Part shown: positions 3,153 to 60,935 of the stretch, one piece after another
Numbering within the stretch: the first letter of the stretch is position 1
Layout: the number at the start of each line of letters is the position of its first letter
DNA from: Eledone cirrhosa
Taxonomy: Eukaryota
Direction: 5' to 3'
Assembly (NCBI GenBank): GCA_964016885.1
Contig: CAXHJY010001691.1
Coordinates: forward strand, 87,322 to 151,321
Length of the DNA stretch: 64,000 bases
The notes under the pieces: generated by a model
The model's input: the letters and a program-made list of their open reading frames with translations, nothing else
What the model was told of the DNA's origin: nothing
Database searches by the model: none
Program-made: the position numbers and the translations under genes

Positions 3153-3198
3153 TGCTAACAGTGTTTCGTCCACACTAGAAGTGGGACTCTTCAGAGCA
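3153..3198 (-). ncRNA. Type I hammerhead ribozyme motif
   Basis: Minus strand tgct-CTGAAGA-gtcc(cacttctagtgt)ggac-GAAA-cactg-TT-agca. Intact core, stems I and II pair, minimal stem III. Confidence 0.8.
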
Positions 3199-5286
3199 TA
3201 AATAGTAAATACATAGTATACAAGCATTGACAAAGCCAAAACAGAAGAATATATGTGGGGATACCATAAGTTGGGAGGAGTTTAAAGAGTAAAGTAAAAG
3301 AGTAAAATAAGAAAAGAGTAAAATAAAAATAAGCATAAAAATAAGAATAAAAATAAGAATAAAAATAAAAATAAAAATAAAAATGAAAAATAAGAAATGT
3401 TATCACTCACAGTTGGGCAGGGTTCCGTTAACATACAGCTACATACAAGTATATGCATAAGCATGAGCACCCGCATGCACCTACACACAAGCCCCCGTAT
3501 GCAACACATACAGTATACACTAATACAAATAACATATAGACGGATGGGCACAAGTTAAGAGATAGAGATAGATAAAAAATAGATAAGAGGTAGATAAAAA
3601 ATAGATAAAAAATAGATAAAAAATAGATAAAAAATAGATAAGAGATAGATAAAAAATAGATAAAAGTAAAATAAAATAAAATAAAATAAAATAATATAAA
3701 GTAAAGTAAAATATACACCAGAAGATAAATAAAACAATACACCAAAAAAAATGGAGTAAAATATACACCATAAAGGAAGGTGTGGGTAAAGATAAGACTG
3801 GCAAATGCATAAGCTATCAAGCTATTTGATAAGTGGAGTGTTACACACTCCCAATTCTCTCCCTTATATATAAATATATATATATATATATCGGTATATA
3901 TATATATATATATATATGATAATATATATGTATAAAAATATATATATATATATATATATATATATGGGTATATATATATATATATATATATATATATATG
4001 GGTATATATATATATATGGGTATATATATATATGGGTATATATATATATATATATATATATGGGTATATATATGGGTATATATAATCTTAGTTTCACCAT
4101 CACCATGCTTTACTGATGTATCTATATCTATATCTACATATAATATAAAAGATTGGAACTTCCATCATTCTTTTGAGAACCGTGGAACAACCACGTCTAT
4201 GCAATGATACACATTTTACAGTCAGGCAGATGAACCATCACCTATATATATATGGGTATATATATATATATATATATATGGGTATATATATATATATATA
4301 TATGTAGATAAATCTACCAAGAGTTTACGGTAGTGTCCAATCCGTATGAAGAACTCAATGTATTCCGGATATCATGGAAAGAAGAGATGTAATGAAAAAT
4401 CACTTTCGGTGAAAGATAAACGGTATACAGAGTCAAGATAAAATATTAAACAAATAATGAATAAAACAATGAAATAGTTCCTTATATTAAACAAAAAAAT
4501 ATATATATGTATATATGAAAACGGGTAGAAAGAGACGATTATGAGGAAGAAAAAAAAAAATATTTTTTTCCTTTTTTTTGTCTCTCTCTCTCTCTCTTTT
4601 CTGGGTTAGAAAATGATTAAAACGAAATGTTTTACTATGTGTGAAGTGTTAAGGTATTAGTTGATTTATTTATTATTTAACAATGGCATTTATTTATCTA
4701 TTTATATATTTAATTATTGTCTATTACCGGTTTCTGCATTTTATTATTATTATATATATATATATATATAGTCTCGTTCTCTCTTGCTCAGTAAATGCTC
4801 TAGGTAACATGTAGTCCCACTGTTCTTTGAAACATGTAATCAACAATACCAGCACATATATAATTCTCCAGCTTCTCATTGATCAAGTAGTATGCAACAT
4901 TTTACTTCAGTCATTCTGATACTAATTACCATTGTGGGAGAACTTGGTGAGCTCTACTACCAGAATCCCATATATTACATAATCAATAATGATAATTTCA
5001 TAACAGCATACTTTAGCGCTTGTTGAAAAAGTTTTTTTATAGGTTAATGGGTTCTATATTTATACATTACCATAGTGACAGAACTCACCAATCATCTCTA
5101 AGTTATATTACAGATGTCATTTCCACACCTTTGACATTGAATGGCTAGAGAAATGTTGAATTTCTGAATGGAATTTTTCAGTGCAATTTCAATGACTTCA
5201 TATCTACCACTTGGGCAATCAATGCCATATCCATTACTATCAGTTTGTACTACACATACTGTTATCATCATCATCGTCATCATCAT

Positions 5287-5578
5287 AAGAGGGATAAGTT
5301 GTAGTGTGCAGGAGAGAAGACTGCGTTGGTATGGACATGTGATGTGCATGGAGGATGACCACTGGGTAAAGATGTGCCAAGAAATCCCAGAAGAAGGAAT
5401 ACGCAGTAGAGTAAGACCACGATAAACATGGGCAGAGGTGGTGAGAGCTGATCTCAGATCGCTGAAGCTCATGGACGAGATGACGACGGACCGTGACAAA
5501 TGGAGAGATGCTCTGCTGAATAGGACCCATCTCTCCCCTGCAAGCAGGGAGAAGCGGACGTAAAATGATGATGATGAT
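5287..5578 (+). mobile_element. RTE LINE 3' fragment
   Basis: [18 protein letters not shown], tail hairpin, (GAT)n. Confidence 0.8.
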
Positions 5579-57610: not shown

Positions 57611-59541
57611 TATCATCTTAAGATATCGTGTTAAATATAAATCATTGAGATTATTGGTTGGAGAAGAGAAAACATGTATGTTACATATTAGTAATTATAA
57701 AGTTAGGAAAATTAACAAAGAGTAGACAAGGCAATGAATGAAAATAAGGCAAAATGAAAAAAAACAATCTTTTGAGGGGGAAACTTACAAAGTTATTTTT
57801 TTTAAATGAAAATAGAAACAAAAGACACAGAACTCCAGGGTTTCAGCTGTTGAGATAGAATTTGGCAGTTTCCACCCTACCAACATTACTTCTGGTCCAC
57901 CCTGGGTCACAAATCAGAAACAAGCCAAAACACTGTCCATGGAGTAAGAGATAAGACAAAACTATATATATATATATCATCATTCATCATCATCATTTCA
58001 TTTTACGTCCGCTTTTTCTCTGCTTGCAAAGGTGGGACGGGAACTGATTTTAGCTTGATTTCTACAGCTGGATGCCCTTCCTAACACCAACCTCATTTAC
58101 AGTGAGTGCTGGGTGCTTTTTTGCCGTGGCACCTCCACGACCACTTTGCAGTGGAATGATAGGGACCCCAGTCCCTATCATCTCATTTCTACAGCTGAGT
58201 AAACTGGAGCAATGTGAAATAAAGTGTCTTGCTCAAGGAAACAACACATCACCCGGTCTGAGAATTGAACTCACAACCTTTCGATTGCAAGGCCAATGCT
58301 GTGCCTATATATATATATATATATATGGAAATGATAAAAAAAAAAGGTTTTAATACCTCATTGGTTATGATTGCTTCTGTCCTTGCTAAAGTAAGGGATA
58401 CAACTGTTGATATATATATGGAGAGAGAGAGAGAGATACGCAAAATCCCAACCACCACCTTCACTTCCACACCAACCCACTCTTCCATATACCTCCCATG
58501 AGCATAGTTTGAAGCATACATCTAGTATTTTACACCCCACCTCCTTCCATTACCTCTCACATTCTAAAGCTCTGCTCATCACACAAGCCCAAATACCCAC
58601 CTCCCCAATCCCGATACACCTCACCCACCAAAGTCCCCAGCCCACACTGTTAAGTGGTTGTGATGGTGACACAACAAAAGCACCCTGTACATACTCTAAA
58701 CATGGTTGATGTTAAGAAGGTCATCCAGCTGCAGAAACCAAACCAAAATCAGAACTGTATGAGCAAGACATGGCCATCTGATCTGGCTTGTCTCATAATA
58801 GGTAAAGTTGTCTAACCCATTCTAGTGTGGAAAGATGGATGTTAAACGGTGATGATGATGATGGTGTGTGTGTGTATATCAGAATGGAGGCAATAAAAAC
58901 TAGTTAGACCATTACTCACCAGAGTACTTGATACTTGGGGTAGTATTGAGCTGTTAAAATGGTCAGAGCTCGGCCGTCGGAGTCCTGTATTTTCCACACA
59001 CACACAGACACACATATACACACATATACATACATATATAGATATAATATATATATATATATTTATATATATATATGCCCCAGCATGGCCTCAGCCGGAT
59101 GGCTGGAACAGGTAAAAGAGTATATATATATATATGAGAGAGCGAGAGATTTTCCTGCTTCTCCTAAGATCAAGCTCAACATCTACTGCATCTGAAGCTC
59201 CCTCAACACACACACATAATGTAGCTTATATATGTATATATATATATACATACATATAAACAAAATGTTAAGGCAGGGTTACTTTCACATAATTGTTTTA
59301 TTTGCATAATATATATTTCAATGTCATAGTTATGTAATAGTGATATCATTGACAGTCTCTGTGTGACATCATCAGTAGATATTTCACTGGTAATGTATTA
59401 CCACCTTCTTGCTGTGATGATTGCTTAAACCGGTTTATCCTCACAGCATTACAACATGACATCCATGGTTAAACACCCTTATTATCTGCACTATATATAT
59501 ATGTATATATATATATATATATATATATATATATATATATA

Positions 59542-60935
59542 TTGTTATACTTTGGGAGGGTCATGTTGCCAATAAGAAACACATGCACCAGTTGCTTTCA
59601 CTTCAATTTATTATAATAAATTTATAAATTTAGGAATTTATAAATTTCCGATTGGTTGGTTGGTTCCACAACCAGATGGTTGTTTATATATTGTCAAAGT
59701 TCTTTCGTCACACATTCTGTGACCTCTTTTGTGACTGGGGATTCTTTTCTTTGTTTTTGTGCCTCTCCTTTGTTCTGTCCTACGCCATTTTGTTTCTGTG
59801 TGTGTCTTGTGTGCTCAGTCTGTGCAAGCGCCACATCCGGGTGTCTGTGTGTGTTTATATTTGTTTATTTATTTGTTTATTTACATGTTACAGGTTGGTT
59901 GTTTGTTCTATATGCGTGTGTGTTTTCATTTTGTCCTTAATTGTAAGTTGCGATGTTGCTGTTCCACTCATGTTTTCTATTTAATTTTGGTTGTAATTCT
60001 TTTATGTTTATTGCCTCTGTGATTTGTCTAAACATTGCGTCTTTTCTGTGTGTAGATTCTATTTTTATTTCTATGTTCTCTAATTTACCCTTATGTTCTA
60101 TTTTAGCATGTTGGTAGAGTACAGATGATTCTTTACTATCTTGAAGGTCTCGCCAGTGTTCATTTATCTGTTCCCCTATACTACGAGCTGTCTCACCTCT
60201 GTACACTATATTTTTGTCTCTACATTGTCCTTCAGTACATCTTATGCTATATACTACATTTCTAGTTTTACAGTTAATATGGGGGCTTAATTTACAGGTT
60301 ATACATTTCTTATCTATACATGGGGGGGGGTCTTTGAAAAGGGTATGTCTTGCTAATAAGTGTTTTTACAGAGGTACCTGGTCTTTCTACTATCTTAATA
60401 TTGAGTTTATGTTTATCTAGGGCCCTTCTAAATCTGTAAGCTAATTCACCTCTAGGGGTTGTATCGATGGACATTACACTCTGGTATTTATTGCTATCAT
60501 ACCATGAGTTTATTCTATTAGACTTATTCCTAGTTCTTTCTATTCTATTCCAAAATTTGCTCCTATACAAGGGGCAGGTCCCATTTGTGTTATTATTTAC
60601 CATTTTTTCCCATTTGGTTCTGGCTCCTCTATACACTCTGATTTTATCTCTCTGATTGTAACCAGAGAACTGCATACGTTGGATGAAGTGTTGTATGTGT
60701 CTTTCTAGTTCTTCGGGGTTGCACATACGGGACACGTTTCTCATCACCCATACCAAATTCGCAATCAGTATGTTGATTTTGGTATGGTCCGAAATAGCTG
60801 AGTTTCGGTGGATCAGATATTTGGAAGTCATGGGTTTGGCATAATGGGAATGGAGGATTTGTTTTTTTGTTATTAATGGTATCTAACCAGAGCTCTGTGT
60901 CTAGTACAGGTAATCGATGGTTGGGGTGTTTACTT
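59542..60935 (-). mobile_element. Penelope-like element (Naiad-type), 5'-truncated: RT thumb, Cys linker, GIY-YIG endonuclease, 3' pLTR
   Basis: LPVLDTELW...HYAKPMTSKY...RMQFSGY, CIDKKCITC, NVVYSIRC...YRGETARS...EH...RQITEAINI...LNRKHEW. Frameshifts fall in homopolymer runs. Ends at (TA)n. Confidence 0.88.

What the first reader, a model, noticed from the sequence alone, without database searches (positions are those of the whole stretch)
3153..59735. Dispersed set of type I hammerhead ribozyme motifs from several unrelated families in one locus
Seen: six intact or near-intact CUGANGA/GAAA/NUH cores with pairing stems at 3153, 17948, two at 20536-20667, 47988 and 49130. Degenerate copies lie at about 16785, 17424, 20782, 49851, 50085, 54374 and 59693. 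Stem sequences differ completely between families while pairing is kept. Several sit shortly before an element end that abuts (TA)n. Established: Penelope-like element LTRs and metazoan retrozymes carry type I hammerheads. Inference: several ribozyme-bearing retroelement families colonise (TA)n tracts in this genome and are probably unannotated.
Basis: partly seen in the sequence, partly recalled or inferred. Interest (0 to 1): 0.8.

Follow-up and report, generated by a model that had tools for sequence, protein, structure and literature searches.

The report
Penelope retroelement hammerhead relics, octopod intron
These small self-cutting-RNA ("hammerhead") motifs are real and far above chance, and most are likely leftover tail ends of several Penelope-like jumping genes that insert into TA repeats in what is likely an octopus genome, a kind already described, with cutting activity untested here.

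Summary
Six sites have an intact CUGANGA/GAAA/UH core and three helices (3194-, 17954+, 20595-, 20608+, 20787+, 48071-), against 0.02 expected from shuffles (post-hoc descriptor; a simpler one gave 4 vs 0.04). 49130 has A14→U; 20782 is intact, not degenerate; 50085 is unsupported. About 8 families occur. All sites but 3194- lie in introns of a focadhesin gene, likely of an octopod.

One family (49851, 54374, 57000, 59693) is tied to Penelope-like elements (PLEs): an RT/zinc-linker/GIY-YIG remnant ends about 200 nt upstream of 59693, and 2 of 2 relatives with a 3' flank carry an intact minimal hammerhead there. The other families have no ORF. Their U·U or C·A stem II junctions, self-complementary stem III, short tails before (TA)n and inverted copies match published PLE hammerheads, chiefly the (TA)n-targeting Hydra clade, which already has an octopus member with a hammerhead. 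No Rfam hit reached the gathering score. Cleavage, expression and genome-wide covariation were not tested. New members of a known kind; interest 0.25.

The parts
3153..3198 (-). Family A type I hammerhead, intact core, G10.1-C11.1, long stem II, predicted GUU cut after 3157; (TA)n 48 nt downstream
   Evidence: RF00163 18.4 bits, below gathering score; hammerhead fold -10.6 vs MFE -10.8 kcal/mol
16783..16827 (-). Family E decayed hammerhead: intact core, A·A junction, stem I disrupted; inside a repeat shared with 42008-42286
17424..17461 (+). Family I decayed minimal hammerhead: extra nt after position 9, G10.1-C11.1, core changes A9→C and G12→C
17948..17998 (+). Family B hammerhead, intact core, U·U junction, 6-bp stem I, predicted GUA cut after 17992; in a ~180-nt insert flanked by (TA)n on both sides; sense to focadhesin
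20536..20667 (.). Head-to-head inverted pair of family B hammerheads (cores 20595- and 20608+); predicted to fold into one ~64-bp hairpin that would bury both
   Evidence: 95% self-inverted; about -100 kcal/mol
20783..20840 (+). Family D hammerhead, intact core, U·U junction, 31-nt stem II region, palindromic stem III (8 of 8), predicted AUA cut after 20836; in a ~215-nt insert between TA tracts
42125..42170 (+). Second, more decayed family E copy (G8→A); 15.2-16.2 is U-A here vs C-G at 16823
   Evidence: its row was offset by 2 nt and is not used for core counts
47987..48077 (-). Family C2 hammerhead, intact core, C·A junction, 60-nt stem II region, near-palindromic stem III with one mismatch, predicted cut after 47993
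48723..48854 (-). 5'-truncated inverted copy of family C (3' half only, GAAA intact), ending at a (TA)n tract
   Evidence: 97.7% over 132 nt to 49145-49276
49130..49211 (+). Family C hammerhead, A14→U, C·A junction, 51-nt stem II region, palindromic stem III (10 of 10)
49851..49893 (-). Family F minimal hammerhead (U4→C) in a solo pLTR, about 49713-49961
54114..54242 (-). PLE GIY-YIG C-terminal remnant, inverted relative to the adjacent family F pLTR
   Evidence: best E 5e-7; 41 hits among 116 proteins
54374..54416 (+). Family F minimal hammerhead (C3→U, stem I damaged) in pLTR about 54218-54556
56994..57035 (-).
57434..57617 (-). PLE zinc-linker/GIY-YIG remnant upstream of the 57000 relic
   Evidence: best E 1e-9
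59693..59735 (-). Family F minimal hammerhead (U4→A, G5→A) in the 3' pLTR of the PLE remnant; (TA)n 154 nt downstream
59946..60940 (-). 5'-truncated, frameshifted PLE ORF: RT C-terminal region, CX4CxxC linker, GIY-YIG-type endonuclease
   Evidence: 66% identical to P0001 (Octopus vulgaris)
14131..63514 (+). Host focadhesin (FOCAD) gene, 12 matched segments covering aa 113-725; all motifs except 3194- lie in its introns

Best explanation
These are type I hammerhead motifs of about eight sequence families, likely left as 5'-truncated 3' ends (pseudo-LTRs) of Penelope-like retrotransposons that likely inserted at (TA)n tracts; the link to an element's gene is shown for family F and inferred for the rest. 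In the active parent, the hammerhead would cut multimeric or read-through transcripts. It would do so mainly as a dimer, through the short self-complementary stem III, and probably with protein help (from the literature, not tested here). Target-primed reverse transcription by the element's RT and GIY-YIG nuclease, starting just past the ribozyme and often aborting or inverting, would give the short solo ends and inverted pairs seen. Most copies in this window are likely inert relics: mutated, solitary or buried in hairpins.
For: Motifs exceed shuffles. A PLE ORF remnant ends ~200 nt upstream of the 59693 motif on the same strand, and endonuclease remnants flank two more F copies. Of 3 related loci, the 2 with 3' flank (L002, L003) each carry an intact minimal hammerhead 135-170 nt after the matched ORF region, and L002 has (TA)n ~75 nt further on. 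Family F has the published PLE consensus: extra nt after A9, G10.1-C/U11.1, long stem II, tiny stem III. U·U at the stem II base occurs in 14 of 26 Hydra-clade rows and C·A in PLE-X1_cBra (File S2, counted by eye). Family B copies are identical in core and stem II, and in stem III but for an A→G change that keeps pairing; they differ in loop 2 and show two double-sided stem I changes if a 1-nt bulge is allowed. There are three inverted 5'-truncated arrangements, a described PLE trait, and (TA)n is enriched downstream.
Against: No ORF is linked to families A, B, C, C2, D, E or I: 116 PLE proteins hit only the three F-linked places, and three short Hydra-type endonuclease motifs found no credible match. 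No covariation among the 4 F copies (0 of 12 pairs with double change). No F copy has an intact core. The hammerhead fold is 3.7-11 kcal/mol above the MFE for B, D and C2 monomers. Pfam does not call the window's endonuclease fragment; among 15 relatives only one scores on GIY-YIG, below cut-off. In one studied PLE the hammerhead was dispensable for insertion in vitro and no RNA-seq ends mapped to its cut site (PMC11167929 passages). No genome or reads were available.
Confidence: 0.82

Rival explanations
1. Families A and B are dispersed monomers of non-autonomous non-LTR retrozymes (tandem 170-400-nt repeats that give circular RNAs), not PLE ends.
For: A has the canonical junction with no extra nt and is the only site scoring on RF00163. 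A U·U junction with 22% cleavage in 1 h is reported in the axolotl retrozyme HHR_Amex2. No ORF is linked.
Against: No tandem array covers any motif. A and B end 19-48 nt before (TA)n in 3 of 4 copies, and B forms an inverted truncated pair. Both junction types also occur in Hydra-clade PLEs.
Confidence: 0.1
2. The long-stem II families (C, C2, D) are cryptic hammerheads of Naiad elements, which target (TA)n and are reported to lack canonical hammerheads.
For: Naiad_Ovul and Naiad_Esco are flagged HHR_half_core, with core halves 35-50 nt apart; C, C2 and D have 31-60-nt stem II regions that standard descriptors would miss.
Against: The 3' ends of Naiad_Obim and Naiad_Ovul show no resemblance to these families by eye, and 3 window motifs had 0 exact matches in that supplement. 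Long, irregular stem II also occurs in PLE-X1 elements.
Confidence: 0.05
3. Some sense-strand intact copies (17954+, 20787+) have been kept by the host and cut focadhesin pre-mRNA, like the conserved intronic hammerheads of amniotes.
For: Both are intronic, sense to FOCAD and core-intact; B17954 has a 6-bp stem I and a 4-bp stem III.
Against: Intact cores are split 3 plus / 3 minus; each sits in a short insert between (TA)n tracts like a recent insertion; the hammerhead fold is not the predicted MFE; no orthologous loci were available.
Confidence: 0.03

Closest known systems
Minimal hammerheads in pLTRs of metazoan Penelope-like elements (Cervera and de la Peña 2014, PMC4209133)
   Same: Type I topology, extra nt after A9, G10.1-C11.1, long stem II, tiny self-complementary stem III, many unrelated families per genome, mostly solo copies, some in opposite-strand pairs. 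Families F and I fit this consensus.
   Different: No cephalopod among the 56 aligned motifs read. Families B, C, C2, D and E have an unpaired base on both sides of the stem II base.
Hydra-clade PLEs and their hammerheads, including Hydra-1_oBim of Octopus bimaculoides (Craig et al. 2021, PMC8557442)
   Same: (TA)n target, hammerhead close to the 3' end, U·U junction in 14 of 26 rows, 3-4-bp stem II with short loop, ACAG..CUGU A stem III in some families (as in family B), one family with an inverted 5'-truncated copy.
   Different: No window family matches the Hydra-1_oBim motif by eye; no Hydra ORF found here; family B has an 8-nt loop 3 and C/C2/D have much longer stem II.
Neptune/Nematis-type EN+ PLEs
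   Same: The ORF remnant has the C-terminal endonuclease preceded by a CX4CxxC linker (C1, C6, C9 invariant in 19 aligned sequences) and a hammerhead in the 3' pLTR.
   Different: Neptune vs Nematis was not resolved (no reference sequences, no tree); the copy is truncated and frameshifted.
Metazoan non-LTR retrozymes, e.g. axolotl HHR_Amex2 (Cervera and de la Peña 2020, PMC7229834)
   Same: Type I hammerhead; U·U junction shown there to be compatible with cleavage.
   Different: Retrozymes are tandem repeats; none is seen here.

Membership tests
Type I hammerhead ribozyme | Conserved core CUGANGA, GAAA, NUH | tested here: met
   Intact with three helices at 6 sites; intact core but broken stem I at 16823-; 1-2 changes at 17428, 49135, 49889, 54378, 59731
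Type I hammerhead ribozyme | Three helices around the core, ends in helix I, above chance | tested here: met
   4 vs 0.04; 6 vs 0.02 with a post-hoc descriptor
Type I hammerhead ribozyme | Stem covariation across copies | tested here: inconclusive
   0 of 12 pairs in 4 F copies; two double changes in B stem I given a bulge, from 2 independent insertions; one in E
Type I hammerhead ribozyme | Self-cleavage at NUH | not testable with these tools
   Needs an in vitro assay; no reads were obtained
Rfam Hammerhead_1 (RF00163) | Score at or above 34 bits | tested here: not met
   No hit in the window scan; best 18.4 bits at 3151-3199; none
EN+ PLE, Neptune/Nematis type (family F) | RT followed by C-terminal GIY-YIG endonuclease | tested here: met
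   Remnant is collinear with P0001-P0003, which carry the RT region; endonuclease-type Y, GE, H residues invariant; Pfam support weak
EN+ PLE, Neptune/Nematis type (family F) | CX2-5CxxC linker before the endonuclease | tested here: met
   CX4CxxC, invariant in 19 of 19 aligned sequences; definition
EN+ PLE, Neptune/Nematis type (family F) | Hammerhead in the 3' pLTR | tested here: met
   Decayed at 59693; intact in L002 and L003
EN+ PLE, Neptune/Nematis type (family F) | Two pLTRs in partial tandem; placement in an RT tree | not tested
   All window copies are 5'-truncated; no named reference set was available to the tools
Hydra-clade PLE (families A, B, C, C2, D) | RWK and DKT motifs, CxCX5C linker, no CCHH | not testable with these tools
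   No ORF is attached to these copies; a short-motif search found nothing credible
Hydra-clade PLE (families A, B, C, C2, D) | (TA)n target and hammerhead near the 3' end | tested here: met
   A 48 nt, B 19-21 nt (2 of 3 copies), D 56 nt, C 118 nt; C2 not (328 nt). Shared with other PLE clades, so not diagnostic
Non-LTR retrozyme | Head-to-tail 170-400-nt tandem repeats bearing the hammerhead | tested here: not met
   No TRF row overlaps a motif
Naiad | N-terminal endonuclease ORF; similarity to octopus Naiad 3' ends | tested here: inconclusive
   No ORF; no resemblance by eye to 2 octopus Naiad 3' ends

The most novel reading that the evidence does not exclude
Octopod genomes hold one of the largest and most varied hammerhead collections in animals, nearly all invisible to Rfam. 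Among them is an active variant with a C·A junction and a 50-60-nt branched stem II (families C, C2), and young sense-strand copies cut host pre-mRNAs such as focadhesin.
Probability: 0.12. Interest if true: 0.55.

Novelty: new member of a known kind. Interest (0 to 1): 0.25.

Why it matters
It adds about eight PLE-type hammerhead families from a likely octopod genome, none reaching the Rfam threshold, so standard annotation undercounts them. A 2026 O. vulgaris repeat annotation has 0 occurrences of 'hammerhead' or 'ribozyme' in its main text (supplement not read). The junction variants (U·U, C·A, long stem II) are ready test cases for how much the hammerhead core tolerates, and the motif is a handle for assigning unclassified (TA)n-flanked repeats to PLEs. 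No new mechanism is shown.

Tried and rejected
Whole-genome search: no genome is held. Sequencing runs: none obtained, so expression, cleavage ends and genome-wide covariation stay open. An exact family-B pattern gave 0 hits in metagenome contigs. Earlier notes: none for this genome or this sequence.

Rejected motifs: 50085 (no stem I, no U16.1); 16897+/42058- (CTGATGA plus a hairpin, but GAAG/AAAT for GAAA in both copies); 42168-, 54688-, 59375- and 5963- (core half only, not passed by any descriptor); CTGANGA inside RTE LINE ORFs (19282-, 51198+) and ATG repeats (43559+); 24344- (two core changes, chance level). I first dismissed 17424 and then reinstated it.

C and C2 did not align meaningfully and are kept as separate families. 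The Naiad idea was not supported. Several rows (A, D, C2, E42118, H) and two (E42130, H50116) had wrong offsets and were not used for core or energy statements. Lünse et al. (RNA Biol) and Arkhipova et al. 2017 are not held and may already describe these junction variants.
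Full report
OBSERVATION. The window is 36% GC and holds 137 (TA)4+ tracts. It has 37 CTGANGA sites. A strict type I descriptor passes 1 of them (3194-). Allowing a mismatch at the base of stem II passes 4 (3194-, 17954+, 20595-, 20608+), against a mean of 0.04 in 200 local dinucleotide shuffles. A descriptor adjusted after seeing the hits adds 20787+ and 48071-: 6 sites against 0.02 in 300 shuffles, and 0.04 when only the DNA downstream of the real cores is shuffled. 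With up to 1 core change a stricter-stem descriptor gives 3 vs 0.23 (0 of 60). With up to 2 changes it gives 6 vs 2.8 (3 of 12 reach 6), so heavily decayed copies are not significant alone.

49130 has A14→U. 20782 is core-intact. 50085 lacks stem I and U16.1. Two copies were missed (about 57000- and 42132+). The 20536-20667 pair is a head-to-head inversion predicted to fold into a single hairpin of about -100 kcal/mol, and family C likewise pairs with its inverted partner; both would be buried in a read-through transcript. Rfam gives no hammerhead in the window scan, 18.4 bits for 3194- alone and none for two other regions.

CONTEXT. A focadhesin gene runs on the + strand from 14131 to 63514. 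All motifs but 3194- are intronic; whether 3194- is inside the gene is not shown. The best protein matches are from Octopus (focadhesin 77% on the query exon; PLE fragment 66%), so the host is likely an octopod. Intact cores split 3 plus / 3 minus. (TA)4+ lies within 200 nt downstream of 12 of 15 listed sites, against 20% of random positions; by family it is 6 of 8. B17954 and D20787 are 180-215-nt inserts with TA tracts on both sides.

FAMILY F IS A PENELOPE-LIKE END. A frameshifted ORF remnant at 59946-60940(-) is collinear with the RT C-terminal region, linker and endonuclease of P0001-P0003. Its CX4CxxC linker is invariant in 19 aligned sequences; this linker marks Neptune and Nematis among C-terminal EN+ clades. 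Pfam support for the endonuclease is weak: none on the window fragment, 1 of 15 relatives below cut-off. The 59693 motif follows about 200 nt later on the same strand. Endonuclease remnants also lie at 57434-57617(-) and, inverted, at 54114-54242(-); these three places are the only hits of 116 relatives in the window. The four F copies keep stem II, GAAA and stem III fully paired, but none has an intact 5' core and none shows a double-sided change (0 of 12 pairs), as expected for decaying copies of one parent. The independent test is the relatives. Of 3 loci found, the 2 with usable 3' flank each carry an intact minimal hammerhead 135-170 nt past the matched region, with unrelated stems, the extra base after A9 and a palindromic stem III; L002 then runs into (TA)n.

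THE OTHER FAMILIES. A, B, C, C2, D, E and I have no ORF. B, C, C2, D and E have an unpaired base on both sides of the stem II base (U·U, C·A, A·A), which first looked new. It is in print. U·U occurs in 14 of 26 Hydra-clade rows of File S2 of PMC8557442 (counted by eye), and C·A in PLE-X1_cBra. Hydra elements target (TA)n and include Hydra-1_oBim from O. bimaculoides with a hammerhead. A U·U hammerhead of the axolotl cleaves 22% in 1 h as a monomer and better as a dimer. In family B the core and stem II are identical in 3 copies (2 independent insertions), stem III differs by one pairing-neutral base, loop 2 varies, and stem I shows two double-sided changes if one bulge is allowed. The segment A15.1-U16.1 is 10/10 self-complementary in C, 8/8 in D, 6/8 in C2, 10-12/16 in B and 6/7 in A. 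I do not file these families as Hydra, because the defining protein motifs cannot be tested.

MECHANISM. Shown: the motifs, their families, the (TA)n and inverted context, and the F-to-PLE link. Inferred from the literature: cleavage of PLE transcripts, mainly by dimers, with low unaided rates. One PLE hammerhead was protein-assisted and dispensable for insertion in vitro, and reverse transcription there starts at internal sites that define the genomic tail. Inferred here: the copies are truncated insertion products and mostly inert. A3194 is the best candidate to fold unaided (hammerhead fold within 0.2 kcal/mol of the MFE); B, D and C2 are 3.7-11 kcal/mol above it.

LITERATURE SEEN. PMC4209133: main text parts 1-2 of 4, supplement file 2 parts 1-2 of 3; file 1 not searchable. 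PMC8557442: 12 of 26 passages, section 11, supplement parts 1, 2, 24, 52 and 53 of 59. PMC7229834: passages and section 15. Passages only: PMC11167929, PMC6765202, PMC13282606 (supplement listed, not read), PMC8967140, and PMC6962438 (235 Rfam hammerhead-1 loci in the giant squid). Not held: Lünse et al. and Arkhipova et al. 2017. Six searches found no paper devoted to octopus hammerheads; the library lacks most subscription journals. Hammerhead position numbering and the effects of core changes are recalled. Earlier scan notes from other genomes reached the same kind of verdict; they are not evidence.

VERDICT. Real, multi-family and PLE-derived (0.82). New members of a known kind; interest 0.25. 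Open: activity, expression, genome-wide counts and the parents of families A-E and I.

Noticed in passing
window:14131-63514(+): Focadhesin gene: 12 matched segments, 11 of them 73-92% identical to the Octopus sinensis protein and one 47%. The host is likely an octopod other than O. sinensis.
   Followed up: partly
window:20536-20667 and 48723-49276: Inverted element ends are predicted to form near-perfect intronic dsRNA of about 64 and 132 bp, plausible A-to-I editing substrates in a cephalopod (recalled knowledge, not tested). A ~205-bp inverted RTE-end pair also lies at 43354-43820.
   Followed up: no
window:16668-16947 and 42008-42286: Family E repeat (69% identical copies) carries a second CTGATGA plus hairpin on the opposite strand about 70 nt from the hammerhead, containing ATTTGCAT in both copies, without GAAA. 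Function unexplained.
   Followed up: partly
window:17915-17925(+): TATA-like sequence about 35 nt upstream of the family B core, preceded by CCAAT; possibly the pLTR promoter.
   Followed up: no
window:18324-20234(-), 39706-41606(+) and shorter copies: RTE-type LINE remnants with RT and PHD finger and ATC-repeat tails, often beside (TA)n.
   Followed up: partly
window:8314-9766: 30-nt minisatellite, 31 copies at 91% identity, with a related 28-nt array and a C-rich 22-nt array between them.
   Followed up: no
window:1980-2500 and 4100-4240: Inverted pair of sequences flanking the region that holds family A, seen by eye; looks like another element's ends.
   Followed up: no
PMC8557442 File S5, Naiad_Obim and Naiad_Ovul 3' ends: By eye both carry GAAA upstream of a CTGATGA near the 3' end, which could be a permuted hammerhead rather than a half core. 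Not tested.
   Followed up: no
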